IMG/VR virus record: IMGVR_UViG_3300032401_000002
Coordinates: 1-64,000 of that record
Source of the DNA: a virus
Reading direction: 5' to 3' (one strand)
Length of the DNA: 64,000 nucleotides
Part shown: positions 14,194 to 56,542 of the stretch, one piece after another
How the letters are laid out: each line of letters opens with the position of its first letter
How positions within the stretch are numbered: the stretch's first letter is position 1
The notes under the pieces: generated by a model
The model's database searches: none
The model's input: the letters and a program-made list of their open reading frames with translations, nothing else
What the model was told of the DNA's origin: nothing
Program-made: the position numbers and the translations under genes

Positions 14194-17100
14194 CTAAGCA
14201 ATGTGCTCACCGATGGCTTCCGCGATGTGAGGGAACAACCCAGCGTTCGCCAACGTCTTGTAGACGATGTTGGACTCTGAGTAGTCGCCCTTGCCCTCGC
14301 GCATGTCACGGAATCTCTTCATGTGCAACAGATCCCAATAGATCTTGAGGGCCGGTGCGTTGTCGAAGCGGAGAAGCAGGCGCACCTTCTCCTCGCAATC
14401 CTTAGCGTAGCGAACGACAGCCGGGTACGTCTTATACACGTCGATGGTGCGCTGCCTCTCAGGCAGCACGATCCACTCGTCGTTGTCAAGATCGTAACCA
14501 CTGCGCAAGCCAGGCTTATAGAGATCATCAGGTTGAAATCTGTTTGTATCAACCACGAAGACCTGCAAGGGGTGTGTAGTGCCAGGGACAATGATCCCTT
14601 CGGCCTTCTCGATCATGAGGGCCACGAGATCTGATCTAACCCACTCGGGAAAGTTGTCCGTGTCGATCCAGAGACTGACATCAAAGTCACTGTCTGCGCT
14701 CCACTGATACGTCGTAAGACTACCCGTCAACACGAGCTTGAGGTACTTCTTGGGATCGGGCCACCCCGCTTCGGTCAAGATCTTGTAGACCTTGTTCTTC
14801 ACCCAAGCAACGTGCGTTGACTTGACAGTCGGAGAGGGCGAGTCTGCGTTCGTGAAGACAGCCGGATCTAGCTCCTCCTGGATGGGATCGAGGATGTTGG
14901 CATGCTTCTGCGGGATCGACTCGGGAGGAGTGCTCTGGGCGATCTGGAGCAACTGATCCTTGGTGTTCAGGGTCGGATCTTCGAGCACAAGCTCCACCAT
15001 GTGATTCAGAAGCGCACCCATCTGCGGGCCGGGCTTGAACCCCGCCGCGATCAGGTCACCACCGTTGATAGCCAGCATCTTGGTGTTGGTGGGTTCGCCA
15101 GCTTCACGCACGCCTTGGACAAGCTGCTGCATGCGAGGAACGTTACCATCCCATGCGGCACCCTTGCCACCCGAATCAGCCCAGCGCAGGTTCAGAAGAT
15201 CATCCGCGTGCTCGTCACCGACACGATTGATGAACTTGCGTGCGCCATTGGGTGCCTGGAAGGGCGGGAACATGTGCCATCTGACAAGGTGCTCGATGCG
15301 CTGAATGCGATCCACGGGAAACTTGAGTTCGGTCAACAGACGCTGCGTCATCTCGGCACCCAACTTCTCGTGATCTTGCCCCTCACCGTGCTCGTTCTCG
15401 TAGTAGTGGCCCCACCCCTCATCATCAAACCACTGACTACCGGGCTTCCCGATGTCGTGCAGAAGCGCAGCCCAGCGTACGTCCACGTCATCGGTCACCT
15501 GAGCCGTAAGGCGCAAGACCTCCTTGATGTGATCGTTGAGGAGCAGGCTGTGGTGCTTGTTCTTCTGATCGAAGCCAACCGTGTTGGCCACATCAGGCAG
15601 AACGTGCTCAAGGATGCCAGTGGTCTCCATGAGATCAACAGCCTTGGCGGGATCTGCACCACTCATGAGCTTGTCTAGCTCCATCATGACACGCTCACGA
15701 GGAAGCTCACTCAGGCTAGGAGCATGAGCGGCCATGTCGTGGTAGGTTTGTGGCGAAGGGTCAAGTCCATGGCGACTAACCGACGATAGCCCTCTAAGGA
15801 TGCGGAGAGGGTCTTCAGGGAAGGATCGGTCGGAGACAGTGTTGAGCAGTCCAGCTTTGAGATCCTCTGATCCACGGTAAGGGTCAACAAGGTCGCCGGT
15901 GGAGAGATTGACAGCCATTGCGTTGCCAGTAAAGTCCCGTCGTGCCAGATCCTGACCAACGCTAATGTAGGGGTCGGTGTAGACCTCAAAGTCCTTGTGT
16001 CCAGGCCCAGTGGATCGCTCAGTCCTCGGCATAGCGATCTCAACCTCGTTCCCCTCGGGATCGCGGTAGCGGAATACCCCGAACTGCTTACCCGTGTAGT
16101 CCACCCGACCGGGAAGAGCCTCCAGAGCTTCTTGAACGTCATCTTCGTCAACTCCTTGTACCATCAGGTCAACGTCCTTGGGTACCTTCCCCAGAACGAT
16201 GTCGCGTACGACACCACCCACCGCATAGACATTGCCCATGGGTTCGAGTGCCTGGAATGCCGCCCAAGCTGCCGGGTCGGTTGCTGCGATGTTGCGCACC
16301 TTGTGTCCGATGTTCGCCGATGCCAGCTTGTACTTCTCGTCGCCTACCATCAGAGTGATCGACTTGATGACTAACTCGGGATGCATTGCGTACCACAACT
16401 CGGCCATGTGTCGGACTGTGTAGGGCATGTCTGTGTTGGTGCGGATCTGAACATTGCCCTTGGGGTCATACAGCCCTTCCACGATGCCGCCCGGCGTGAA
16501 GCGCCCCTGGATGTCAGAGTGACGCTCGCCAGGATGGCCAACGTAGATGCGATCAGTCTCGATGTCAAAGATGTACGGGATGGGGCCAGCCAGCATCGGA
16601 GGCTGTGGCTTCGCTGCTGTCATCTGGAAGATTAGTCTCCCCTGCCTCTGCACGGTCTTGTCCATGATGTTCTCGTTGAAGTTGGCAGGCAGAACGTCGT
16701 CCATATCGACAACGGGTTGCGGATCAGTGGGGGGCTTTCTGTCAGGGTTGATGTGGAAACGCAGGGTGTGCTTGCGCCAGTCGTCGTAGTTGATGCATGC
16801 AGCCCCGCAGTCAGAGCACGTACGCGGAGCCGTCATCGGCATCTCGTCATCGGGGTCATTCATGTAGAAGGGCTTAGGACTCTGGGGATAGCCAGGGTTG
16901 TCGAACTGATCGGTGCCCGACCACTCATCCAGCTTGTAGTTGAGCAGACCGGGGTTGATCTCGCCGATGCCCTCGACAGAAGCCTGCTTGAGTGCCGTGC
17001 TCCCGTAGGGCATGCCCTCTTGATCCAACAGTCCGCCCCAGTCCCACCCTTGATCCTTCGTGTAGCGCTTGAGGCGCTTCTCGACCAAGTGGAGGGAGAT

Positions 17101-17391
17101 GTTGCTGTGCTTGATCGACCAGAACGCAGTCCATCGGAAGTGTAGCTCCAACTCGCCGAAGGCATGAGGGCGACTACCATCGTTCCACCCCATGGCCTTG
17201 AACTGATCTACGTGATGGTCATTGGACACACTCACATGCGTGCCACTCATGGCCCAGTTGTACTCGTCAGCAGGACGATCCAGAGGCGCGACAGAGTAAT
17301 CCTGACGGATCTGTGCCGCTTCGGCAGCGGCTTGTGGCTCCTCGCCCGGATAGGCGTCAGAACCGAGTAGGTCGGCAGACTTCTGCATCAC
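14194..17391 (-). CDS. multidomain protein: C2H2 finger + class II CCA tRNA nucleotidyltransferase + HD domain + second Pol-beta-type nucleotidyltransferase
   Basis: VGGVVRD..DVD, RRDFTGNAMA, EDPLRILR, LLHDIGKP, INGGDLI..GP; C-terminal 'LTGSLTTYQWSADSDFDV'. Confidence 0.9.
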   Translation of the reverse strand: MMQKSADLLGSDAYPGEEPQAAAEAAQIRQDYSVAPLDRPADEYNWAMSGTHVSVSNDHHVDQFKAMGWNDGSRPHAFGELELHFRWTAFWSIKHSNISLHLVEKRLKRYTKDQGWDWGGLLDQEGMPYGSTALKQASVEGIGEINPGLLNYKLDEWSGTDQFDNPGYPQSPKPFYMNDPDDEMPMTAPRTCSDCGAACINYDDWRKHTLRFHINPDRKPPTDPQPVVDMDDVLPANFNENIMDKTVQRQGRLIFQMTAAKPQPPMLAGPIPYIFDIETDRIYVGHPGERHSDIQGRFTPGGIVEGLYDPKGNVQIRTNTDMPYTVRHMAELWYAMHPELVIKSITLMVGDEKYKLASANIGHKVRNIAATDPAAWAAFQALEPMGNVYAVGGVVRDIVLGKVPKDVDLMVQGVDEDDVQEALEALPGRVDYTGKQFGVFRYRDPEGNEVEIAMPRTERSTGPGHKDFEVYTDPYISVGQDLARRDFTGNAMAVNLSTGDLVDPYRGSEDLKAGLLNTVSDRSFPEDPLRILRGLSSVSRHGLDPSPQTYHDMAAHAPSLSELPRERVMMELDKLMSGADPAKAVDLMETTGILEHVLPDVANTVGFDQKNKHHSLLLNDHIKEVLRLTAQVTDDVDVRWAALLHDIGKPGSQWFDDEGWGHYYENEHGEGQDHEKLGAEMTQRLLTELKFPVDRIQRIEHLVRWHMFPPFQAPNGARKFINRVGDEHADDLLNLRWADSGGKGAAWDGNVPRMQQLVQGVREAGEPTNTKMLAINGGDLIAAGFKPGPQMGALLNHMVELVLEDPTLNTKDQLLQIAQSTPPESIPQKHANILDPIQEELDPAVFTNADSPSPTVKSTHVAWVKNKVYKILTEAGWPDPKKYLKLVLTGSLTTYQWSADSDFDVSLWIDTDNFPEWVRSDLVALMIEKAEGIIVPGTTHPLQVFVVDTNRFQPDDLYKPGLRSGYDLDNDEWIVLPERQRTIDVYKTYPAVVRYAKDCEEKVRLLLRFDNAPALKIYWDLLHMKRFRDMREGKGDYSESNIVYKTLANAGLFPHIAEAIGEHIA

Positions 17392-44493: not shown

Positions 44494-45212
44494 TCGCTAA
44501 GTGTAGCTGATGCGTCGAGTAGCAGCGACTCGTCCTCTTCCACTTGTGCGATTTCTGTGATCTCCTGAACACCGTTCTCGGCGATGTCCGTGATCGTCTG
44601 GTGCATGAACGCCGCGCGCTCCTCGACCGTAGGCTGATCGAGACGCTGGAGCCGGATGCCGAAGTTCTGGAAGATCATCTGAAGCGCATCGTCCAGTCGG
44701 TTGTTGTAGTTGGCCTCGTCGTCGTTCGCGCCTGGTAGGATCAGGCCCGCCGTCTTGGGGATGTAGAAGGCGAACGAGTACCTGAAGGTGCTCAGGAACA
44801 GATACGTCAACTGCGTCATGGCGATCTGCTGAACCTGTAGCTGCTGCTGCTGCTGCTCGGTCTGGATACCCCGCAGGATGTTCTCCATGTTGACTCCGGT
44901 GTGGGCCATGTTGTCCAGGGCCGTACCCAGTGTGATGAAGTTCTGCTTCGCGTAGAGGTACGCCTGCTCCTGCTCGTAGCGGCGCATGAAGATCCTCAGA
45001 TCCTCCTTCCATCCACCGAAGAGTCCAACCGCCTGGTTGAGATCTTCGAGAATGGCATTGCCTCCGTTGGGGATCACATTGAGACCCTTAACGGTCTGCT
45101 CTTCGAACCACGATGCCGAGAGATCCTTGTATGCCTCGGCTACCGCCTGCTTGCCACTGTCGGGTGCCCCAACCAACGCGATGGCGATTGGGAACTCAAG
45201 TGCTGTGCTCAT
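44490..45212 (-). CDS. P-loop NTPase/kinase-like protein
   Basis: 'IALVGAPDSGK'. Confidence 0.55.
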   Translation of the reverse strand: MSTALEFPIAIALVGAPDSGKQAVAEAYKDLSASWFEEQTVKGLNVIPNGGNAILEDLNQAVGLFGGWKEDLRIFMRRYEQEQAYLYAKQNFITLGTALDNMAHTGVNMENILRGIQTEQQQQQLQVQQIAMTQLTYLFLSTFRYSFAFYIPKTAGLILPGANDDEANYNNRLDDALQMIFQNFGIRLQRLDQPTVEERAAFMHQTITDIAENGVQEITEIAQVEEDESLLLDASATLSE

Positions 45213-48808: not shown

Positions 48809-49095
48809 TGAACCTCAAGCAAGAGATCCGTCACGGCGAGGTCATCATCGACTTCTATGCTGAGTGGTGTGGCCCGTGCCACGCCGTGGCCCCTGTCCTT
48901 GACAAGGTCAGCCTTGACACGGGCATCAAGATCGTCAAGGTAGACATTGACGCCGAGCGCGAGATCAGCGAGACGTTCGGGGTTGTGTCCATCCCGACGA
49001 TGGTCTACATGATCAATGGAGACGAACAGGCTCGCGTCACTGGCGCTCTCCCTAAGGACAAGTTGATGGCTGCTTTGGGGATCATCGGCACGTAG
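48808..49095 (+). CDS. thioredoxin
   Basis: WCGPC. Confidence 0.93.
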   Translation: MNLKQEIRHGEVIIDFYAEWCGPCHAVAPVLDKVSLDTGIKIVKVDIDAEREISETFGVVSIPTMVYMINGDEQARVTGALPKDKLMAALGIIGT

Positions 49096-49097
49096 GG

Positions 49098-49130
49098 TTG
49101 ACTGCCTTGTGGGTCGTGTGCTACAGTTAG
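49098..49130 (+). promoter_or_regulatory. promoter of the RNA island
   Basis: TTGACT-N18-TACAGT-TAG with extended TG. Confidence 0.7.
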
Positions 49131-49483
49131 ACCTCAAGTGTGAAGCGCCTCTGCTAACGAGGCACCGAGATCGGGAACGCCCTCTCTGACCCCCTCGGTG
49201 AAAGAAAGAGAGGGCCGTGGCCCCGTGGAGACGGGGCAAAGATTTCAACTGCTTCTGAACCGTGTACTATAATTTGGGGGCAAGCAGTTACTGAAGGTAT
49301 ACCGATGGTGTAGTTTGCCATCTGATCGCCTGGCTCTTCGGAGCAGGGAGATACATAGTTCGGGTAGCCCATCTGGCGCAGCATTGCTACGGGGATCGCA
49401 ACCGAGGCAGATGCCGAACGAAGTAGAGTTTCGAGACTGGGGGTCGATCCCCAAGGTTGGCCCCCAGTCTCAAAGTTTATCGT

Positions 49484-49555
49484 CGCGGATTGGAGCAGTG
49501 GTAGCTCGCTAGGCTCATAACCTAGAGGTCGTTGGTTCGAATCCATCATCCGCTA
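49484..49555 (+). tRNA. tRNA-Met(CAT), initiator-like
   Basis: Cloverleaf, C1:U72 mismatch, loop CTCATAA. Confidence 0.9.
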
Positions 49556-49915
49556 TGAGGCCACCGCCCTAATACCCACGGGTAGTCGGGTTGTGCTGGC
49601 CTCTCTAGCTCAGGTGTATAACAGGACGGCTTGCCGTCTGAGGCCACCTGGGAACGGGTACGGGGTGGAGGCTGGTCGCCGTCTGCTTGTGGTGTAGCGT
49701 CGTCTTCGGACGGGGTGTAATCCGCAGGTTTGATATAGAGCAGTCCCACTCCGTCCCACCTATCCCTTTCTAGCTCACACAAGACTGTCGCGAAAGCGGC
49801 ACCACACGCGCATCTATGCGCGGATTGAGCAGGGTGGCACACAACCTTGACCAAAAGAGTGTGTCTGCGCATGAGATCGCAGGAACCATCTCACGGGCAT
49901 GGCCCGTTACAGCCA
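49556..49915 (+). ncRNA. unassigned large structured RNA
   Basis: Multiple complementary stems with GNRA/UUCG loops between tRNAs. Confidence 0.45.
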
Positions 49916-49920
49916 TACTA

Positions 49921-49994
49921 CAGCGTGTAGCTCAGTCTGGTAGAGTGTCCGTCTGGGGGACGGAGAGTCGAGGGTTCGAGTCCCTCCACGCTGA
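49921..49994 (+). tRNA. tRNA-Pro(GGG)
   Basis: Cloverleaf. Confidence 0.9.
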
Positions 49995-50002
49995 TAGCAT
50001 GA

Positions 50003-50078
50003 CTGGATGTAGCTCAGTTTGGTTCAGAGTACCCGATTCGGATTCGGGGAGTCGGAGGTTCGAATCCTCCCATCCAGA
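50003..50078 (+). tRNA. tRNA-Pro(CGG)
   Basis: Cloverleaf. Confidence 0.9.
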
Positions 50079-50082
50079 TAGA

Positions 50083-50157
50083 CAGGTCGTAGCTCAGTCT
50101 GGTAAGAGTGCCCGCCTTGGACGCGGGGAGTCGGTGGTTCGAATCCACCCGGCCTGA
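50083..50157 (+). tRNA. tRNA-Pro(TGG)
   Basis: Cloverleaf. Confidence 0.9.
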
Positions 50158-50391
50158 TACCTCCTATCCTGAGGGGGAACCCCGCGTTGACCGTGGGATC
50201 GTAAGCGCGTCTCGGCGCTCGTGGAAACTACCCGGACATAGGCGGGCAAGTCTGCGAGAACAACCTGGGGCGAAGCGCGTACCCTGCGCGAGCGGTTAAC
50301 AGAGCACAAGGTTTACATGGTTCGGCTCGTCGTGATGGTCTGTCGCGCTCCTTGTGCCGCGCGATGGATGGCAGGCCATCCTGAGCAACTT

Positions 50392-50755
50392 GGGCATGCC
50401 CGGTTTCGACAGTCGTGTATGGGCAATGAGATGCAGCGGGTCGCGGCCTTATCGCGCCAAGCCTTGGACAGGGCAACCACATGCAGACGACAACATCGTC
50501 TCCACGGACTACATCGACAACGGCATCGCCGCTCTCGAAGACTTCCTCGCGGAAGCGTCCCTCGTCACGGTCTAGCGAGTACCAATAGACCGCTGTGTCG
50601 CCCAGCTTAGGCGACTGACTGCTCGGAAAGTGACGAGTTGACCCGGAGAGGGAAAGTCCTCTGCCCTGGTGGAGGGCACACAGCCCCCAAAGAAGCTGCT
50701 AGAAGTCTTGTTGTAACCGCTCGGTTGGACGAGGGTTCGACTCCCTCCATGTCCA
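50392..50755 (+). ncRNA. ssrA: tmRNA
   Basis: GGGCATG/CATGTCC-A acceptor with G3:U70, 5' GGTTTCGAC, 3' T-arm GAGGGTTCGACTCCCTC, internal tag ORF 50483-50575. Confidence 0.92.
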
Positions 50756-50901
50756 CTGCAAGAATCAAGAAATCCCCTAGGGGCGTCGTTGTCTGCTACC
50801 AGTTCCGCAGGAGCAGCCAGGTGCGGAACACCTGCGAGGCGTATGAGGGAGAGTCACGAGAGTGACACGGAGATGTCTTTCCCTAGGGGCATCTCTCACA
50901 C

Positions 50902-50970
50902 GCGGAGTAGGCTAAGGCAGCCAAGTGGTCTCCAACACCACAGGACAGGGTTCGATTCCTTGACGCCGCG
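50902..50970 (+). tRNA. tRNA-Trp(CCA), atypical small D-arm
   Basis: GTGGT-CTCCAAC-ACCAC anticodon arm, T-arm, G73. Confidence 0.75.
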
Positions 50971-51055
50971 CTTCATCACTGAAAGGTTCGAGGGTTGACT
51001 GAAGGTACGGTTCGTCTGCTCACGGCAGGCAGCTAGGCTTCAGCAGTGATGGCAT

Positions 51056-51129
51056 GCCCCGTTAGTCTAACGGTTCAGGATACCACCCTCTCACGGTGGG
51101 GATTGCGGGTTCGAATCCCGCACGGGGTA
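51056..51129 (+). tRNA. tRNA-Glu(CTC)
   Basis: Cloverleaf. Confidence 0.9.
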
Positions 51130-51170
51130 CTGCCTTCGGGCACTGGGCCACGCAGCATCAGTGGCATCAC

Positions 51171-51242
51171 TGGAGGGTAGCTCAATGGTAGAGTGTCCCG
51201 CTGTTAACGGGGTGGTTCTGGGTTCGAGTCCCAGCCTTCCAG
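51171..51242 (+). tRNA. tRNA-Asn(GTT)
   Basis: Cloverleaf. Confidence 0.9.
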
Positions 51243-51254
51243 CTTGCAACACAT

Positions 51255-51328
51255 GGCCTGTTCGTCTAGCGGTCTAGGATACCGGGCTTTCAACTCGGAC
51301 GACAAGGGTTCGAATCCCTTACGGGCTA
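51255..51328 (+). tRNA. tRNA-Glu(TTC)
   Basis: Cloverleaf. Confidence 0.9.
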
Positions 51329-51427
51329 CTGACGGTGCCACGAGCCGTCGTAAGCAACTCGTGGTCGTGAACAGAGAGGGACGACGGGAAACCGTCCTCT
51401 GACACGGATGAGAAAGCTCCCACACCT

Positions 51428-51500
51428 TAGAGGGTGGTCTAATCGGCAGGACGCCAGGCTCTGACCCTGGAGATTGAAGGTTCGATCCCTTCCCCTCTAG
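51428..51500 (+). tRNA. tRNA-Gln(CTG)
   Basis: Cloverleaf. Confidence 0.9.
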
Positions 51501-51505
51501 CTCTC

Positions 51506-51577
51506 AACAGGGTAGACTAACGGTAGGTTCCCTGGCCTTGAACCAGGTCGGTCTAGGTTCGAATCCTAGCCCTGTTA
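51506..51577 (+). tRNA. tRNA-Gln(TTG)
   Basis: Cloverleaf, weak D-stem. Confidence 0.82.
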
Positions 51578-51662
51578 CTGCAACAAGATTGCCACGCCCC
51601 TATGCCGGGGCCAATCTAGGCGGGTATTGCGCCCGTGTGTCCAGGTGAAAGCCCTGGCTTAT

Positions 51663-51737
51663 GCCCCTCTAGCCCAACTGGCCAGAGGCAACGGCTTTAA
51701 AGACCGTTCAGTGAAGGTTCGAATCCTTCGGGGGGCA
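51663..51737 (+). tRNA. tRNA-Leu(TAA), short variable loop
   Basis: Cloverleaf, loop TTTAAAG. Confidence 0.8.
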
Positions 51738-51793
51738 CTGAAGGACACGCACGTCTGCGCGAAGGGGTTGCTCCCGGAGAGCTTAGGGCGTCC

Positions 51794-52083
51794 GTGGTGG
51801 TGTGGCCGAGTAGGACTGGATTCCTCTCCACGAGGGGTACAGTTGCGAAGGCACAACCGGCGAAAGTGACGGGCAACCGGCACGAGTAGTAGCCGCGACA
51901 AGGGTGTTGCGTTCGGCCAGAGCCAATCGGTGAGGTCGGTCTCAGTCAGCACTCGTCTGGGAGTAGTTACCTGGGCAGACGGTGGCGCTTGACAGCGCAG
52001 GGAAGGTACGACCGAAACTGTAGCCATTGACATGGACAAGCAGTGGATAGGTCGTCGGAGGGTTGCTGAATCCCTTCCACCAC
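51794..52083 (+). ncRNA. unassigned large multibranch RNA
   Basis: Closed by GTGGTGG/CCACCAC; many internal stems. Confidence 0.45.
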
Positions 52084-52121
52084 TCCTTCTATCTCTTTCT
52101 CCCCGCACAGTAACTAGCACT

Positions 52122-52301
52122 ATGGCGGGAATCATGATCAGGTGCTCAGGCACGAAGGACGGGGTACATTGTGCCCGGTACACTCGTTTCATTGGAGCGC
52201 CGAATGTTGACTGGACGTGCGAAGGGTGCCTTGCTGGTCGAGCACCATTCGAGCACAAGTCGAAGGTTGTCCAGCAGCAGATGAAGCACAAGAAGAAGTA
52301 G
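52122..52301 (+). CDS. small Cys-rich protein inside the RNA island
   Basis: 59 aa, C..HC..CxxC, Lys-rich tail. Confidence 0.45.
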   Translation: MAGIMIRCSGTKDGVHCARYTRFIGAPNVDWTCEGCLAGRAPFEHKSKVVQQQMKHKKK

Positions 52302-52304
52302 CTT

Positions 52305-52378
52305 ACCTCGCTAGCTCAAACGGATAGAGCAAGGGTCTTTTAAACCCAAGGTTCTGGGATCGTACCCCAGGCGAGGTA
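52305..52378 (+). tRNA. tRNA-Lys(TTT)
   Basis: Cloverleaf, T-loop ATCGTAC. Confidence 0.88.
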
Positions 52379-52380
52379 CT

Positions 52381-52536
52381 CTTGAACGACTATTCGGCTC
52401 CTCTGGACGCTGCGCGGCTTCACCACCGCTCGACTCCATGTGGTTCATGGAGGGTCAAGGTTGTTGACGGTAGGCACGCTCGCGACGTAGCCGAAAGACA
52501 GCTTACCGAAGGGCAAGACCGCACTGGTCGTTCAAG
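52381..52536 (+). ncRNA. long irregular hairpin RNA
   Basis: CTTGAACGAC/GTCGTTCAAG terminal stem with nested stems. Confidence 0.45.
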
Positions 52537-52541
52537 TTATT

Positions 52542-52615
52542 GGATCGCTAGCTCAGTTAGGCAGAGCAGGGGACTCTTAATCCCAAGGTCGTCGGTTCGA
52601 TCCCGACGCGATCCA
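52542..52615 (+). tRNA. tRNA-Lys(CTT)
   Basis: Cloverleaf. Confidence 0.9.
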
Positions 52616-52635
52616 CTGGCCGCAAGGCCGACAGG

Positions 52636-52717
52636 GCCGGAAGGGCGAGGGTTCGAATCCCTCCCGGACAAGGAGCTTCGGCTCACCGTCCGGTAGCTCA
52701 GTGGGAGAGCGTCCGGC
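52636..52717 (+). ncRNA. circularly permuted tRNA-like RNA (YrlA-like topology)
   Basis: Order is T-arm, acceptor 3' strand, UUCG hairpin, acceptor 5' strand, D-arm; closed by GCCGGA/TCCGGC. Confidence 0.8.
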
Positions 52718-52722
52718 GTTAT

Positions 52723-52805
52723 GCTCTGGTGGTGGAATTGGTATACACACTAGCCTTAGAAGCTAGCGCCCACAGGGATTGAGGGTTCGACTCCCTCCTA
52801 GAGCA
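52723..52805 (+). tRNA. tRNA-Leu(TAG)
   Basis: Cloverleaf with long variable arm. Confidence 0.9.
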
Positions 52806-52857
52806 CTAGGTAGACGTACCGAGACCCAGCGGATGGGTCAACCTAAAGTCCGCACCC

Positions 52858-52941
52858 GCGCTCGTGATGGAATGGGTAGACATGCTAGGTTGAGAGCCTA
52901 GTGGCCGCGAGGTCGTGCAGGTTCAAGTCCTGCCGTGCGCA
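52858..52941 (+). tRNA. tRNA-Leu(GAG)
   Basis: Cloverleaf with long variable arm. Confidence 0.88.
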
Positions 52942-52942
52942 T

Positions 52943-53012
52943 AGGATGGTAGCCCAACAGAGAGGCAGCCCGACAAGGGAAGAGTTGCCGGAATCGAGTC
53001 CGGCCCATCCGA
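52943..53012 (+). ncRNA. tRNA-like RNA with truncated anticodon arm
   Basis: GGATGG/CCATCC acceptor, D-arm, CCC-GACAA-GGG mini arm, GCCGG/CCGGC T-arm. Confidence 0.55.
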
Positions 53013-53016
53013 CCCT

Positions 53017-53090
53017 GGTACGCTAGCTCAATTGGTAGTAGCGTTCGGTTGAAGCCCGAAAGGTTCTCGGTTCAAGTCCGAGGCGTACCA
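53017..53090 (+). tRNA. tRNA-Phe(GAA)
   Basis: Cloverleaf. Confidence 0.9.
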
Positions 53091-53100
53091 CTGTAGTATT

Positions 53101-53175
53101 GCCCTCTTAGCCCAATCCGGCAGAGGCACCAGCCTCAAACCCTGGTCAGTGGAGGTTCGACTCCTCCAGAGGGCA
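53101..53175 (+). tRNA. tRNA-Leu(CAA), short variable loop
   Basis: Cloverleaf. Confidence 0.82.
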
Positions 53176-53189
53176 TAGTACCACCACAT

Positions 53190-53264
53190 GCGGATCGTAG
53201 CTCAATCGGTCAGAGTCGTGGCTTGTGAAGCCATCGGTTGCGGGTTCGAATCCCGTCGATCCGC
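53190..53264 (+). tRNA. tRNA-His(GTG) with encoded G-1
   Basis: Cloverleaf, G-1:C73. Confidence 0.9.
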
Positions 53265-53271
53265 CTTGTAC

Positions 53272-53344
53272 GTGCGAATGGCTCAGTAGGTAGAGCATCT
53301 GGTTGCCAATCAGAAGGTCGCGGGTTCGAACCCCGCTTCGCACA
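53272..53344 (+). tRNA. tRNA-Gly(GCC)
   Basis: Cloverleaf. Confidence 0.9.
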
Positions 53345-53465
53345 TCGGTAGCTGGTTGGCGAGTCCTTCCCATGCAGCCTGGGCGACCTGAGTCTCGGCC
53401 GAGATGAGGGAACCTTGTGAATCGGGTCGTTGGCCAACTTGTGCAAACCATCCAGGTGCCGTCCT

Positions 53466-53539
53466 GCTCCATAAGCTCAGTCTGGCAGAGCGCTGGTCTT
53501 GTAAATCAGGGGTTGTCGGTTCGATCCCGACATGGAGCT
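53466..53539 (+). tRNA. tRNA-Thr(TGT)
   Basis: Cloverleaf. Confidence 0.9.
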
Positions 53540-53542
53540 TAC

Positions 53543-53615
53543 GACCCGGTAACTCAGTGGACAGAGTCACGGTTTCCTAAACCGTTGGTCACAGGTTCGA
53601 CTCCTGTCCGGGTCA
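53543..53615 (+). tRNA. tRNA-Arg(CCT)
   Basis: Cloverleaf. Confidence 0.9.
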
Positions 53616-53620
53616 TGTTT

Positions 53621-53693
53621 GGCCTGTTAGCTCAGTGGACAGAGCGTGGGGCTTCTATCCCCAGCGTCGGAGGTTCGATCCCTCCACGGGCCA
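53621..53693 (+). tRNA. tRNA-Arg(TCT)
   Basis: Cloverleaf. Confidence 0.9.
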
Positions 53694-53834
53694 CTTTACA
53701 CAAGACGCTCGAAGCGTCCTTGTACTAGATGATGCCCTTCGGGGCCGGGCGGGGCGATCCATTGGCCTGGGAACAGAACGAGGTCGAACACGACGGGTGA
53801 CAGTTGAACGGCGGGACGCCCGGTGCCCGCACAT

Positions 53835-53906
53835 GCGAAGGTAACTCAACGGTAGAGTCTCAGTTTTCCAAACTGGTGGTTGCGGGTTCGATTCCCGTCC
53901 TTCGCT
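53835..53906 (+). tRNA. tRNA-Gly(TCC)
   Basis: Cloverleaf. Confidence 0.9.
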
Positions 53907-53951
53907 CTCGGTGGGTGAGTCCAGGTTCGCCCTGTAAGTAGCCCACCGCTA

Positions 53952-54024
53952 CGCTGTGTAGCTCAGTTGGTAGAGCAATCCCCTCATAAGGGAGAGGTCG
54001 GAGGATCGTAGCCTCCCATAGCGA
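53952..54024 (+). tRNA. tRNA-Met(CAT), elongator or Ile2
   Basis: Cloverleaf, T-loop ATCGTAG. Confidence 0.85.
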
Positions 54025-54130
54025 CTTCGGTCAGTGCTTAGGCACAGGACAACGAACCTCCCAAGACCCGGTACGACTCCACAACATGGGTGGAGCAACG
54101 TTCTGATCAAAAGCCGGGTTGGCCGAACAC

Positions 54131-54201
54131 GCTCCTATAGCTCATGTGGAAGAGTCATCCTTCGTACGGATGTGGTCGCAGTTCGACTCTGCGTGGGAGC
54201 T
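54131..54201 (+). tRNA. tRNA-Thr(CGT)
   Basis: Cloverleaf. Confidence 0.85.
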
Positions 54202-54204
54202 TGC

Positions 54205-54276
<72 letters not shown>

Positions 54277-54385
54277 TGCAACAAGACTCTCCTCGATGCG
54301 TGAGGGGCTGCTCACCAGCCCGCAAAGCGCAAACACGGGAGATAGACCGGGCGAACGGGAGTGAGCTTCGCCTGGTCGAACTTTC

Positions 54386-54458
54386 GGCCTGTTAGCTCAG
54401 CGGACAGAGCGAGTGGCTTCGAACCACTAGGTCGGGGGATCGTACCCCTCACAGGCCA
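54386..54458 (+). tRNA. tRNA-Arg(TCG)
   Basis: Cloverleaf. Confidence 0.9.
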
Positions 54459-54468
54459 TGTAGTACCT

Positions 54469-54540
54469 GGTTTCGTACGAATCTGGTGAAACGGTTCCCC
54501 TGTCACGGGAATGAGGCGGGTTCGATTCCCGTCGAGACCG
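54469..54540 (+). tRNA. tRNA-Asp(GTC), weak D-stem
   Basis: Acceptor GGTTTCG/CGAGACC-G, loop CTGTCAC. Confidence 0.8.
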
Positions 54541-54691
54541 CTATGGGCTGTAGAGTCCTGGGGTGTTGGAGAATCCCCGAAGCTGCGAGGTAGACCAACC
54601 TCCTCGCGGCCTCTAGTCGCGCTCCTTGAAAGCTGGCCCGCAAGGCCGGTGGAAGTATCGGGCAAAACCGACGCGACTCATTCAGGGCCTG

Positions 54692-54763
54692 GGGCGGTTA
54701 GCTCAGTGGGAGAGCAGGTTCTTTACACGTACAAGGTCGGGGGTTCGAATCCCTCACCGCCCA
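54692..54763 (+). tRNA. tRNA-Val(TAC), mismatched anticodon stem
   Basis: Cloverleaf. Confidence 0.8.
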
Positions 54764-54879
54764 TACCAGGATTCAGCGCTAGTGTGCCTGCCTGGGGCCG
54801 AACCACCCGTATGCCGGTGGGGGAATCAGCACCCGAGGGTACTCGGAGTTCAGGTGCGAACCCTGAGCGCTATTGAACG

Positions 54880-54953
54880 TGACCCGTAGCTCAGTGGTAA
54901 GAAGCGGGAGGCTTATATCCTCTTGGTCGTGGGTTCGATTCCCACCGGGTCAA
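54880..54953 (+). tRNA. tRNA-Ile(TAT)
   Basis: Cloverleaf, loop CTTATAT. Confidence 0.85.
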
Positions 54954-54954
54954 T

Positions 54955-55190
54955 CACGAACGGAAAGACAAGCGCGGTCGCAAGATCGAGGAAAGTCAGG
55001 CCACCTGAACCAGGGGAGACCAATGCAACCTGGGGAAACGTGACGAGGACGTGGGAGAAGGTCGCAAGGTCTTCGGCTTACCACCTAATCGGCGGGGTGC
55101 AACCTCAAGCGGACGGTCATCTCAGACCGGACAGGTAGAGGGCACAGATAGATGCTTGTCCTAGACAGAAGCCTGCTTACGAAGTTCGTG
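54955..55190 (+). ncRNA. rnpB: RNase P RNA, miniature
   Basis: GAGGAAAGTC and ACAGAAGCCTGCTTAC (P4), AGATAGATG, P1 CACGAAC/GTTCGTG, P2 GACAAGC/GCTTGTC, P15 with GGU. Confidence 0.88.
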
Positions 55191-55244
55191 TACACATGAG
55201 AGTGGTTTGGCGGTCGTGACCCATACCTCACGCGCTCTCACCTT

Positions 55245-55317
55245 TGGCTCGTAGCTCAGTTGGGAGAGCACTTGATTGACATTCAAGAGGTCGTCGGATC
55301 GAGGCCGACCGAGCCAA
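55245..55317 (+). tRNA. tRNA-Val(GAC)
   Basis: Cloverleaf. Confidence 0.88.
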
Positions 55318-55388
55318 CTTGCCCACCCGTCGCGTTGTAGGGGAGTGGCATAAGCCCCCGTCTGTTGCAACGCCAGCCGGGGGAACTC

Positions 55389-55462
55389 GCGGTTGTAGCT
55401 CAGTGGAATAGAGTATCAGGTTGCGAACCTGAGGGTCGCTGGTTCGAATCCAGCCAATCGCA
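55389..55462 (+). tRNA. tRNA-Arg(GCG)
   Basis: Cloverleaf, TCAGG-TTGCGAA-CCTGA. Confidence 0.9.
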
Positions 55463-55653
55463 CTCAGCACTACAAGTTTGGGGACGGCCCCGTCAGGCCC
55501 CTTCCCAACGCTACCTCTGGCGAGATAGGGGTCGTGTCAACTCGACCACGAAAGTGTCGGGGCGCTGCGAATCACAGAGCGTGTTATCTGTGGTCGTCTG
55601 CCGGGAGACTACCCCGTGTCAAACCAGGTGTAGCTGACGGCTCGCCTGGCCTA

Positions 55654-55727
55654 GGACTTGTAGCTCAGTGGTATAGAGCATCCGTCTGATACGCGGAGGG
55701 TCGGTGGTTCGACTCCACCCAAGTCCA
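55654..55727 (+). tRNA. tRNA-Ile(GAT)
   Basis: Cloverleaf. Confidence 0.92.
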
Positions 55728-55849
55728 TGAGAAGTAGCTCAGATGCCATCTCGCATGTGTCTCCCGGCCAGAGCCGGATAGGGTGCATGCGGGGCAGAGC
55801 GGGCCGATGATCACGGTCGCGACGAGGGGCTGGCAATCCTCCTTCTCTA
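55728..55849 (+). ncRNA. tRNA-like RNA with ~45-nt hairpin inserted in the D-loop
   Basis: GAGAAG/CTTCTC acceptor, GCTC/GAGC D-stem, GGCCG-ATGATCA-CGGTC arm, non-canonical T-loop. Confidence 0.65.
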
Positions 55850-55852
55850 CAT

Positions 55853-55923
55853 AGTGATGTGACCGAGAGGCCAGGTCGTTGGCTGCAACCCTTCGCACAG
55901 CGGTTCGAATCCGCTCATCACTT
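55853..55923 (+). tRNA. tRNA-Cys(GCA)
   Basis: Cloverleaf, U73, U:U mismatches in the anticodon stem. Confidence 0.82.
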
Positions 55924-55927
55924 CTTC

Positions 55928-56001
55928 GGGCGGCTAGCTCAATTTGGGAGAGCAACGCGCTTGCACCGCGTAGGTTGGGGGTTCAAGTCCCCCGCTGTCC
56001 A
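55928..56001 (+). tRNA. tRNA-Ala(TGC)
   Basis: Cloverleaf, G3:U70. Confidence 0.9.
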
Positions 56002-56003
56002 CT

Positions 56004-56103
56004 ACCGAAAGAACGGGTTCGAATCCCGGCCGCGCGACCCAAGCTAGAGGGGTATACACCAAAGGCGAAGGTCTGATCAGTAGTGTAAGGGCAGCACGTC
56101 GGT
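56004..56103 (+). ncRNA. second permuted tRNA-like element
   Basis: ACCGA...T-arm...insert...D-arm TAGTGTAAGGGCAGCACG...TCGGT. Confidence 0.55.
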
Positions 56104-56110
56104 TTAACTT

Positions 56111-56186
56111 GGGTTGTGGGGCTGCATGGGGTGGCCATCTCGCTTGCACCGAGAACAACAGCAGGGTTCGATTCCCTGACGATCCA
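56111..56186 (+). tRNA. tRNA-Ala(TGC), second atypical copy
   Basis: G3:U70, TCTCG-CTTGCAC-CGAGA. Confidence 0.78.
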
Positions 56187-56278
56187 CTAGGAAGCAGAAG
56201 CACGCAGATGACTCGTAGGTGTTCTAGAAACCAGGGCCGTAACGCAACCGTGCCCCATCAGCGCTGCATCCTACTCGT

Positions 56279-56362
56279 GGTAGGTTACTCAAGTGGTTAC
56301 GAGAGCGGGTTGCTAACCCGTCAAGTCGCAAGGCTTCCTGGGTTCGAATCCCAGACCTACCG
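56279..56362 (+). tRNA. tRNA-Ser(GCT)
   Basis: Cloverleaf, long variable arm. Confidence 0.9.
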
Positions 56363-56367
56363 TACCA

Positions 56368-56451
56368 GGAAGGTCGCATTGGCGTGCTTATGCGGTTTGA
56401 ACCCGTTGATGGGGCTAATCCCCCGTGGGAGTTCGACTCTCCCACCTTCCT
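56368..56451 (+). tRNA. tRNA-Ser(TGA), atypical D-arm
   Basis: GGAAGGT/ACCTTCC acceptor, long variable arm. Confidence 0.75.
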
Positions 56452-56455
56452 CTTT

Positions 56456-56536
56456 GCTGGCGCTTGCTCAATGGTGAGGGCTACTGGCTGTAACCCAGAA
56501 GACACGTCTATGGGGGTTCGACTCCTCCCGCCAGCA
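56456..56536 (+). tRNA. tRNA-Tyr(GTA)
   Basis: Cloverleaf. Confidence 0.85.
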
Positions 56537-56542
56537 CTCCGC

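What the first reader, a model, noticed from the sequence alone, without database searches (positions are those of the whole stretch)
52636..52717. Circularly permuted tRNA gene with the acceptor end closed by a UUCG hairpin
Seen in order: anticodon-stem 3' strand CCGGA; variable loop AGGGC; perfect T-arm (52647-52663); acceptor 3' strand CCGGACA-A; linker GAGC-TTCG-GCTC; acceptor 5' strand CGTCCGG; D-arm TAGCTCAGTGGGAGAGC; anticodon-stem 5' strand TCCGG. The break lies in the anticodon loop, and the acceptor has an initiator-like C1:A72 mismatch. Known: this topology occurs in YrlA Y RNAs and in permuted tRNA genes of some algae and archaea. However, no extended Ro-binding stem and no Ro/Rsr gene are seen here. 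Inference: after RNase P and CCA processing it would be a two-piece, anticodon-open tRNA. It could act as a decoy for anticodon nucleases or uncharged-tRNA sensors, or as a ligase substrate.
Basis: partly seen in the sequence, partly recalled or inferred. Interest (0 to 1): 0.85.

Follow-up and report, generated by a model that had tools for sequence, protein, structure and literature searches.

The report
Orphan YrlA-like phage tRNA mimic
A 106-base spacer in an uncultured phage's 39-tRNA operon encodes a conserved RNA built like a tRNA with its parts in rotated order (the design of the bacterial Y RNA YrlA). Unusually, the phage has neither the Ro protein gene nor the Ro-binding handle that normally go with this design.

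Summary
Window 52617-52722 lies between tRNA-Lys(CUU) and tRNA-Leu(UAG). It folds into a 5' hairpin plus a four-way junction whose arms are, in order, a T arm, a closed acceptor hairpin and a D arm. A 6-bp stem that stands for the anticodon stem closes the junction. Re-permuted in silico, ARAGORN calls it a canonical cloverleaf.

The fold is selected. Two diverged orthologues (L009, L018) keep every helix fully paired through compensatory changes, and the G-U pairs fit the + strand.

It is not a decoding tRNA, and it fails the tests for YrlA proper:
- Rfam scores it 33.7 bits against a cut-off of 69.
- It has no basal stem or Ro handle.
- No TROVE, DUF2828 or RtcB gene and no credible RNA ligase gene was found in the 150-kb record.

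In cultured actinophages the same model hit 4 of 4 Ro-encoding phages, with the best hit beside Ro, and 0 of 5 Ro-less ones. This Ro-less carrier is therefore an exception.

The 7-position acceptor and the C1:A72 mismatch are not conserved. One allele has also lost the T-loop and D-loop consensus. This weakens the RNase P/CCA "two-piece" idea.

Best reading (about 0.45): a stand-alone YrlA-type tRNA mimic released by processing of the flanking tRNAs. This scan has noted similar modules in other phages, usually beside Ro-like genes.

The parts
52542..52616 (+). tRNA-Lys(CUU). Its 3' processing would create the element's 5' end.
   Evidence: ARAGORN; Rfam tRNA 62.5 bits
52617..52630 (+). 5' hairpin H0: 5 bp including one U-G, GNRA-type loop. 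It starts directly after tRNA-Lys.
   Evidence: MFE fold. Kept with compensatory changes in L009 and L018.
52631..52635 (+). Conserved single-stranded linker (ACAGG; ACAAG in L009)
52636..52641 (+). Closing stem P1, 5' strand (anticodon-stem 3' strand equivalent)
   Evidence: Pairs with 52712-52717. The innermost pair is A-U here, G-C in L009 and G-U in L018.
52642..52646 (+). Variable-loop equivalent, 5 nt ending in C
52647..52663 (+). T arm: 5-bp stem and canonical 7-nt T loop
   Evidence: The stem covaries in L009 and L018. The loop is canonical here and in L009, and replaced by a 10-nt loop in L018.
52664..52693 (+). Closed acceptor arm: 6-bp stem (52664-52669 with 52688-52693), a C52687/A52670 mismatch, a 3x3 internal loop and a 4-bp hairpin with a UUCG loop (52673-52684)
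   Evidence: The stem sequence differs completely in each orthologue but always pairs. The insert is 18, 16 or 4 nt.
52694..52711 (+). UA (U8/A9 equivalent), D arm (4-bp stem, 7-nt loop with GG) and the G26 equivalent
   Evidence: The D stem is invariant. The D-loop GG is lost in L018.
52712..52717 (+). Closing stem P1, 3' strand (anticodon-stem 5' strand equivalent)
52718..52722 (+). 5-nt tail, which is also the 5' leader of tRNA-Leu. RNase P cleavage of tRNA-Leu would create the element's 3' end.
   Evidence: Conserved in L009 and L018.
52723..52806 (+). tRNA-Leu(UAG), downstream neighbour
   Evidence: ARAGORN; Rfam

Best explanation
The whole 106-nt spacer is a small RNA gene of the YrlA type. 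It is a tRNA-shaped four-way junction with permuted strand order (T arm, closed acceptor hairpin, D arm), closed by an anticodon-stem equivalent and preceded by a protective 5' hairpin.

It is transcribed as part of the tRNA operon. It would be set free as a stable RNA of about 106 nt by the same cuts that mature its neighbours: RNase Z-type 3' processing of tRNA-Lys and RNase P cleavage of tRNA-Leu. This step is inferred.

It cannot decode, because it has no anticodon loop. As made, it cannot be aminoacylated, because it has no free 3' end.

Unlike YrlA, it lacks the Ro-binding handle, and the phage record has no Ro gene. I therefore read it as the tRNA-like 'effector' half of a Y RNA working on its own. 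It would act in trans through its tRNA-like body, occupying or recruiting a factor that recognises the tRNA L-shape or elbow without being consumed. The partner and the purpose are inferred, not shown.
For: - The structure is exact and is both MFE and centroid.
- The re-permuted sequence is a canonical cloverleaf.
- The best non-tRNA Rfam family is YrlA.
- Orthologues sit at the same Lys-Leu position in L009 (RNR 79% identical) and in L018. All five helices are 100% paired in all three, the acceptor and T stems are rewritten compensatorily, and the G-U pairs fit only the + strand.
- Between window and L009 the element is as conserved as the flanking tRNAs: 86% in one BLAST block, against 70-77% for neighbouring coding DNA.
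- All nucleotides that build the tRNA elbow and core (U8, A14, G15, G18, G19, C48, U54, U55, C56, A58 equivalents) are intact in window and L009. The loop changes fall only at positions that vary in real tRNAs.
- Many tRNAs in this array are only 3-14 nt apart, so a 106-nt spacer is not needed for processing.
- The same model finds such modules in 4 of 4 Ro-encoding actinophages, with the best hit beside Ro, and in 0 of 5 Ro-less large actinophages. This ties the design to the Y-RNA world.
- No TROVE, DUF2828 or RtcB gene was found in this record.
- The Ro-handle motif that clusters beside Ro in those phages is absent from this array.
Against: - There is no expression or processing data.
- Only three distinct orthologues could be obtained.
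- The L018 allele sits in a phage 98.7% identical over 16.6 kb. It has lost the T-loop consensus and the D-loop GG while keeping all helices. The tRNA elbow is therefore not indispensable, which fits a purely structural spacer better.
- Nearly every long spacer in this array is a stable, end-closed fold.
- No partner is identified.
- Homology to YrlA cannot be shown by sequence. The Rfam YrlA model and my model score tRNA-tRNA junctions almost as high, at 25-35 bits.
- The record is about 8.6 kb shorter than the longest contig carrying the identical helicase, so a Ro gene in the missing part is not excluded.
Confidence: 0.45

Rival explanations
1. It is a tRNA-derived structured spacer. A tandem tRNA duplicate lost its outer halves, and the remainder is kept only as a compact, self-contained fold. 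That fold stops the spacer from mispairing with neighbouring pre-tRNAs. It has no function in trans.
For: All spacers of 40 nt or more in the array are stable, end-closed folds of similar energy density. The L018 allele keeps the helices but not the T-loop and D-loop consensus. The acceptor insert varies from 4 to 18 nt. The array holds other anticodon-less tRNA-like spacers at 52942-53016 and 56003-56110. No partner gene is present.
Against: Many tRNAs here are separated by only 3-14 nt, so long spacers are not needed for processing. The tertiary-interaction nucleotides of a tRNA are all retained in two lineages. The element evolves as slowly as the tRNAs. Among cultured actinophages such modules were found only with Ro, not as general array debris.
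Confidence: 0.27
2. It is a genuine, minimal Y RNA. It would be bound by a Ro60/Rsr protein supplied by the host or encoded in the unsequenced ~8.6 kb. Binding would use the conserved 5' segment, which resembles the Ro-contact motif GNCGAA(N)G.
For: The 5' segment (GCCGACA plus G or AG) is conserved in all three orthologues and matches GNCGAA with one mismatch. Chen et al. note that Ro mainly contacts the 5' strand (PMC4201824). In the cultured actinophages sampled, the module goes with Ro. The record is incomplete.
Against: There is no TROVE or DUF2828 gene in 150 kb, and tblastn with two phage Ro proteins gives nothing better than E = 0.12. There is no basal stem: only 5 nt separate the closing stem from tRNA-Leu. 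The handle motif that occurs 1-4 times beside Ro in GiJojo, BRock, Trax, Atuin and L012 is absent from this array and from L009's. In Ro phages the module lies within ~0.5 kb of Ro, inside or at the edge of the tRNA array; here the array is complete and holds no Ro. A near-match to a 6-base motif is expected by chance roughly one time in five (my estimate).
Confidence: 0.12
3. RNase P cuts at the acceptor 5' strand, the 3' side is trimmed and receives CCA, and the result is a two-piece, anticodon-open tRNA. That RNA would act as a decoy for tRNases or sensors, or as a ligase substrate.
For: This allele has a 7-position acceptor (6 bp plus a C/A mismatch) stacked on a 5-bp T stem, with an unpaired 3-nt segment 5' of the site. 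M. smegmatis YrlA with a 7-bp stem is cut by RNase P and gains CCA in vivo (PMC4201824). The phage encodes its own CCA-adding enzyme, and an RNase P RNA-like gene lies in the array (seen in L009).
Against: The acceptor is 5 bp in L009, and in L018 it is a 6-bp hairpin closed by a tetraloop with no leader. The feature is therefore not conserved. The C1:A72 mismatch is unique to this allele. There is no anticodon loop, so it cannot bait anticodon nucleases. No RtcB gene and no credible RNA ligase gene was found in the phage.
Confidence: 0.08
4. It is a true circularly permuted tRNA gene. Its transcript would be circularised and re-opened at the acceptor to give a decoding tRNA.
For: The 3' half precedes the 5' half, and all four arms of a cloverleaf are encoded.
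Against: Joining the processed ends would give a 'loop' of about 24 nt that contains a hairpin, with no conserved U33-NNN-R37. There is no bulge-helix-bulge motif, and bacteria and phages are not known to have the splicing endonuclease (established knowledge). The phage record has no RtcB gene and no credible RNA ligase gene. The array already covers all 20 amino acids. The L018 allele lacks the T/D loops.
Confidence: 0.02

Closest known systems
YrlA (Y RNA-like A; Rfam RF02553), partner of bacterial and mycobacteriophage Ro60/Rsr (Chen et al. 2014, PMC4201824; structure preprint 10.1101/312249)
   Same: It has the same module: T arm, closed acceptor hairpin and D arm, shut by a stem in the place of the anticodon stem, with tRNA-type T and D loops. 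The D stem, and in L009 the T stem, are identical to the Rfam consensus. [quoted passage not shown]
   Different: It scores 33.7 bits against a gathering score of 69. It has no long basal stem or Ro-binding handle. No Ro gene lies within 4 kb or anywhere in the 150-kb record. It is packed directly between two tRNAs. One allele has lost the elbow loops.
Ro-linked tRNA-like modules of cultured actinophages (Streptomyces phages GiJojo and BRock, Arthrobacter phage Atuin, Gordonia phage Trax), found here with my model
   Same: They lie in or beside the phage tRNA array on the tRNA strand and have the same permuted module (27.8-39.6 bits with model R1). A short hairpin and a CAGG-type linker precede the closing stem.
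   Different: Those RNAs carry a 25-30-nt handle on each side with the repeated motif GAUGCGNAG...UACUUC. They sit within ~0.5 kb of a Ro-like gene, among up to four handle-bearing sister RNAs. The window element has none of this.
M. smegmatis YrlA (cut by RNase P, CCA added in vivo; PMC4201824)
   Same: In this allele only, it shares a 7-position acceptor stem that could make it an RNase P substrate.
   Different: The 7-position stem is not conserved in the orthologues. There is no evidence of cleavage, and no Ro.
Circularly permuted tRNA genes of Cyanidioschyzon merolae and some archaea (review PMC3978253)
   Same: The 3' half is encoded upstream of the 5' half, with the acceptor ends joined by an intervening sequence.
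   Different: There is no complete anticodon loop and no bulge-helix-bulge junction. The setting is a phage. It is not expected to yield a decoding tRNA.
Small stable RNAs co-transcribed with phage T4 tRNAs (species 1 and 2) and the RNase P-released tRNA-like mascRNA. This row rests on my own knowledge and was not checked here.
   Same: They are non-decoding, structured RNAs released by the tRNA-processing machinery from a longer precursor.
   Different: They have different folds, are not permuted, and no sequence relation is known.

Membership tests
YrlA (RF02553) | tRNA-like module in the order T arm, closed acceptor hairpin, D arm, shut by a stem made from the 5' and 3' parts | tested here: met
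YrlA (RF02553) | Conserved T/D loops and stems that build the tRNA elbow | tested here: met
   Met in window and L009. Not met in the L018 allele, which has a 10-nt T loop and no GG in the D loop.
YrlA (RF02553) | Score at or above Rfam's gathering threshold (69 bits) | tested here: not met
   33.7 bits. tRNA-tRNA junctions reach 25-35 bits with the same model.
YrlA (RF02553) | Long stem formed by the RNA ends that carries the Ro-binding site (GNCGAAN0-1G near the 5' end) | tested here: not met
   There is only a 6-bp closing stem and a 5-nt 3' tail before tRNA-Leu. The 5' segment matches the motif with one mismatch.
YrlA (RF02553) | Encoded within about 4 kb of a Ro60/TROVE gene on the same strand | tested here: not met
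   No TROVE or DUF2828 match in 150 kb. tblastn with two phage Ro proteins gives E >= 0.12. Caveat: about 8.6 kb of the genome may be missing.
YrlA (RF02553) | Bound by Rsr/Ro60 | not testable with these tools
   Needs EMSA or co-immunoprecipitation.
Ro-linked handle RNAs of actinophages (defined here from GiJojo, BRock, Trax, Atuin) | 5' handle motif (U/A)GCGNAG ... (U/A)ACUUC, repeated on the Ro strand beside Ro | tested here: not met
   The motif occurs 4, 4, 4 and 1 times beside Ro in those phages. It occurs 0 times in this array or L009's; the genome has only scattered matches in coding DNA.
Circularly permuted tRNA gene (C. merolae type) | 3' half upstream of 5' half, acceptor ends linked | tested here: met
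Circularly permuted tRNA gene (C. merolae type) | Ends that rebuild a 7-nt anticodon loop, with a bulge-helix-bulge junction for end joining | tested here: not met
   The flanks are a hairpin plus linker (19 nt) and a 5-nt tail. No U33/anticodon/R37 pattern is conserved.
Canonical tRNA (RF00005) | Contiguous cloverleaf with anticodon loop and free acceptor end | tested here: not met
   ARAGORN and Rfam call no tRNA at 52617-52722. ARAGORN calls one only after artificial re-permutation with an added loop.

The most novel reading that the evidence does not exclude
The element is a natural 'separation-of-function' Y RNA: the tRNA-like effector half of YrlA, kept by a phage lineage that has no Ro and no Ro handle. 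It would work on its own as a non-consumable tRNA-elbow mimic. It could sponge a host tRNA-binding defence or processing factor, or recruit that factor. This would be a Ro-independent class of phage tRNA-mimic RNA, and it would give a route to the still unknown effector of YrlA's tRNA-like domain.
Probability: 0.15. Interest if true: 0.75.

Novelty: new variant of a known kind. Interest (0 to 1): 0.45.

Why it matters
YrlA-type tRNA mimics are known only as partners of Ro60, and what their tRNA-like domain binds is an open question (10.1101/312249).

Here the tRNA-like domain is conserved by compensatory evolution in a phage lineage with no detectable Ro gene and no Ro-binding handle. If it is functional, it shows that the tRNA-like half can act without Ro. 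It would also offer a short, handle-free bait for finding the effector.

It also adds to the picture of this phage's tRNA operon as a dense island of non-decoding, tRNA-derived RNAs. The island sits beside the phage's own CCA-adding enzyme and an RNase P RNA-like gene.

If the element is only a structured spacer, it is a clean example of how tandem tRNA duplicates turn into permuted tRNA-like folds, which is the origin proposed for Y RNAs.

Tried and rejected
Searches that found nothing useful:
- Exact or degenerate pattern scans for further orthologues gave nothing real. Three viral contigs patterns found none.
- A conserved 18-mer gave 16 viral and over 120 genome hits. I take all of these as chance: none of the 16 viral loci matched the covariance model, and the genome hits, which were not run through the model, are about the number expected by chance for this pattern.
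- The single metagenome scan returned only an identical copy, L015.
- blastn of the element against cultured phages found no match, and megablast of the neighbourhood matched only a tRNA-Gly.
- The search for related loci with the helicase found no relatives in IMG/VR.

Limits on fetching relatives:
- Contigs of closer relatives (RNR 85% and 78% identical) exist in ENA but their DNA could not be fetched. The Logan fragments and L020/L021/L158/L159 do not reach the Lys-Leu junction.
- Whole-contig searches of the metagenomic relatives were not possible, so I could not check L009's 223-kb contig for Ro.

Leads that did not hold:
- L012 carries a TROVE gene but is an AT-rich, non-syntenic phage that shares only a similar RNR. 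It is not a close relative.
- The element has no close paralogue among the array's 39 tRNAs, so its parent tRNA could not be named.
- A weak Rnl1-like hit at 44595-44993 is a thymidylate-kinase-like protein.
- The unexplained N- and C-terminal parts of the 1065-aa CCA enzyme gave no family.
- The overlapping ORF 52382-52696 was rejected as a gene: it lies inside the RNA array, and its 5' part is absent in L009.
- The Rfam YrlA score alone is not diagnostic, because tRNA dimers score similarly.

Full report
**Setting.** The window is the first 64 kb of a 150,167-bp IMG/VR phage record, estimated 93% complete. Its GC content is 55-61%. It encodes a DnaE-type polymerase, an RNR, an SNF2 helicase and a 1065-aa CCA-adding/HD enzyme. 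DnaE is only about 30% identical to those of large actinophages such as Rhodococcus E3 and the Gordonia Pupper, Skog and Stormageddon groups. Positions 49483-56537 hold 39 tRNA genes on the + strand covering all 20 amino acids, plus a tmRNA. The finding lies in the 106-nt gap between tRNA-Lys(CUU) (ends 52615/6) and tRNA-Leu(UAG) (starts 52723).

**Observation.** RNAfold's MFE and centroid agree on one structure:
- a 5' hairpin (52617-52630);
- a 5-nt linker;
- a four-way junction closed by a 6-bp stem (52636-52641 with 52712-52717);
- three arms: a T arm with a canonical loop, a closed acceptor arm (6 bp, a C/A mismatch, a 3x3 internal loop and a 4-bp UUCG-capped hairpin) and a D arm.

The fold has -50.3 kcal/mol, and 4 of 200 shuffles fold as well. 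I joined 52687-52716 to 52637-52671 through an artificial 7-nt loop, and ARAGORN then called a regular 75-nt cloverleaf. In native order neither ARAGORN nor Rfam's tRNA model sees a tRNA here. The flanks are not the missing halves of two tRNAs, so this is not a dimeric-tRNA artefact.

**Is the fold selected?** Through the neighbouring RNR protein I fetched syntenic relatives.
- L009 (JGI contig of 223 kb, RNR 79% identical) has the same gene order, the same tRNA order and a 105-nt spacer between Lys(CUU) and Leu(UAG).
- L018 (ENA) is 98.7% identical to the window over 16.6 kb. It carries a patch at 52450-52720 that is about 30% diverged, evidently brought in by recombination, so it supplies a third, independent version.
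- L015 is an identical copy from another sample.

In all three versions every helix is 100% paired.
- The acceptor stem has three unrelated sequences.
- The T stem has three different sequences.
- The innermost closing pair is A-U, G-C or G-U.
- The 5' hairpin changes compensatorily.
- L018's three extra G-U pairs would be A-C mismatches on the other strand, so the + strand is the RNA.

On the model-fitted alignment, which also includes the GiJojo RNA, 96% of cells pair. Seventeen of 30 pairs carry changes on both sides, against 0-4 when the partners are slid by 1-3 columns. That alignment leans towards the model, but the hand segmentation gives the same picture. Between window and L009 the element sits in one BLAST block at 86% identity with its flanking tRNAs, while neighbouring coding DNA is 70-77% identical.

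**What varies.**
- The acceptor is 6 bp plus a C/A mismatch here, 5 bp in L009, and a 6-bp hairpin closed directly by a tetraloop in L018.
- The insert is 18, 16 or 4 nt.
- The UUCG cap and the 'initiator-like' mismatch are therefore allele-specific.
- Window and L009 keep all nucleotides that form the tRNA elbow and core. Their loop differences fall at positions that vary in real tRNAs.
- L018 has a 10-nt loop in place of the T loop and no GG in the D loop.

**Relation to YrlA and Ro.** Rfam's best non-tRNA match is YrlA: 33.7 bits, local E 5.7e-6, gathering score 69. That model also scores tRNA-tRNA junctions at 25-35 bits, a pitfall Chen et al. themselves mention. The score alone is therefore not diagnostic.

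The record has no TROVE, DUF2828 or RtcB match and no RNA ligase (PF09414) match. tblastn with two phage Ro proteins gives nothing better than E = 0.12. A faint Rnl1-like hit turned out to be kinase-like.

I then examined cultured actinophages that do encode Ro.
- In GiJojo, BRock, Atuin and Trax the Ro-like gene lies inside or beside the tRNA array.
- My covariance model, built from this element alone, finds a permuted tRNA-like module within ~0.5 kb of Ro in each, at 27.8-39.6 bits and outside annotated tRNAs.
- Those RNAs carry long handles with a repeated motif, (U/A)GCGNAG...(U/A)ACUUC. The motif occurs up to four times in tandem beside Ro.
- The motif is absent from this phage's array and from L009's.
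- Five Ro-less large actinophages (E3, SCentae, RedWattleHog, Finch, Skog) have neither TROVE nor any match to the model.

In this small sample the module goes with Ro in 4 of 4 phages and is absent from 0 of 5 Ro-less ones. The present phage is the exception. Caveat: the longest contig with the identical helicase is 158.8 kb, so about 8.6 kb of genome is unseen.

**Mechanism.** These points are shown:
- a conserved, + strand, tRNA-shaped but permuted fold fills a tRNA-to-tRNA spacer;
- it has no anticodon loop and no free acceptor end;
- it has no Ro handle;
- the record has no Ro gene.

These points are inferred:
- The RNA is co-transcribed with the array. The only promoter-like site on the + strand is at 49098, and no terminator lies near the element.
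- Its ends are made by 3' processing of tRNA-Lys and RNase P cleavage of tRNA-Leu. The tRNAs lack encoded CCA, most are followed by U, and the phage has its own CCA enzyme.
- The 5' hairpin and the tight fold would protect the released ~106-nt RNA.

Many tRNAs here are only 3-14 nt apart, so a long spacer is not needed for processing. This, together with the retained tertiary nucleotides, favours an RNA with a function of its own. I take it to be the tRNA-like effector half of a Y RNA acting without Ro (confidence 0.45).

The main rival is a tRNA-derived structural spacer (0.27). It is favoured by the L018 allele and by the fact that all long spacers here are stable, end-closed folds. Other rivals:
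- A minimal Y RNA for a host or unseen Ro (0.12). The conserved 5' segment matches GNCGAA with one mismatch.
This fate is documented for M. smegmatis YrlA, but the stem it requires is not conserved here.
- A true permuted tRNA gene (0.02).

**Novelty.** The design itself is published: the YrlA papers describe these RNAs as resembling circularly permuted tRNAs with closed acceptor stems. What I could not find described is a handle-less, Ro-less version conserved in a phage tRNA operon. Earlier notes of this scan report many such modules in other phages, usually beside Ro60-like genes, and a second, eroded one in this same array. I used those notes as leads and checked what I could. Verdict: real and conserved, a new variant of a known kind, with the function still open.

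Noticed in passing
window 52380-52541: This 162-nt spacer between the two tRNA-Lys genes folds into a multi-helix structure closed by a 12-bp terminal stem (-62 kcal/mol, z = -2.6). It has no Rfam match. It is absent in L009, where the two Lys genes are 2 nt apart, and it is part of the diverged patch in L018.
   Followed up: partly
window 52942-53016: This 75-nt spacer looks like a non-permuted, anticodon-less tRNA. It has a 6-bp acceptor stem, a T-arm-like hairpin and a 3-bp stem with a GACAA pentaloop where the anticodon arm should be. ARAGORN and Rfam do not call it.
   Followed up: no
window 56003-56110: A second, weaker permuted T-arm-first module lies between the two tRNA-Ala genes. My model scores it 12.9 bits, and its fold is no better than shuffles (z = +0.4). 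It looks eroded.
   Followed up: partly
window 52450-52720 versus L018:15510-15777: This patch is about 30% diverged inside a phage that is otherwise 98.7% identical over 16.6 kb. Other small divergent patches lie at 48850-49100, 50750-50900 and 52850-52950. This points to recombination mosaicism within the RNA island.
   Followed up: partly
L009:18834-19076 (equivalent to window about 54954-55160): There is a sub-threshold match to bacterial RNase P RNA class A (52.4 bits, E 4e-14) spanning the whole model in only 243 nt, inside the tRNA array. It looks like a miniature phage RNase P RNA.
   Followed up: no
window 49483-56537: None of the 39 tRNAs has an encoded CCA, and nearly every one is followed by U right after the discriminator. 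This fits RNase Z-type 3' processing followed by CCA addition by the phage's own enzyme.
   Followed up: no
window 14194-17391 (- strand): The CCA-adding/HD enzyme is 1065 aa long. About 386 N-terminal and 250 C-terminal residues match no Pfam family, and the N-terminal part gave no convincing Atlas hit.
   Followed up: partly
L016:8290-8790 (Streptomyces phage GiJojo); also L162:2430-2800 (BRock) and L161:2510-2900 (Trax): Four or five tandem small RNAs sit upstream of the Ro-like gene, and each starts with the same handle motif. In the two phages checked for this (GiJojo, Trax) none is annotated; their spacers hold no RNA gene, and Trax lists only small hypothetical CDSs there. Only one or two of them carry the tRNA-like module.
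   Followed up: partly
L012:6900-7110 (- strand): Upstream of a TROVE gene in an AT-rich metagenomic phage there are three repeats of a similar handle (GCGAAAG/GCGAAG ... GGGAUACUUC). None has a recognisable tRNA-like module.
   Followed up: no
L019:2466-2852: A ribosomal protein S12-like gene (PF00164) lies inside the tRNA/tmRNA island of a distantly related metagenomic phage.
   Followed up: no
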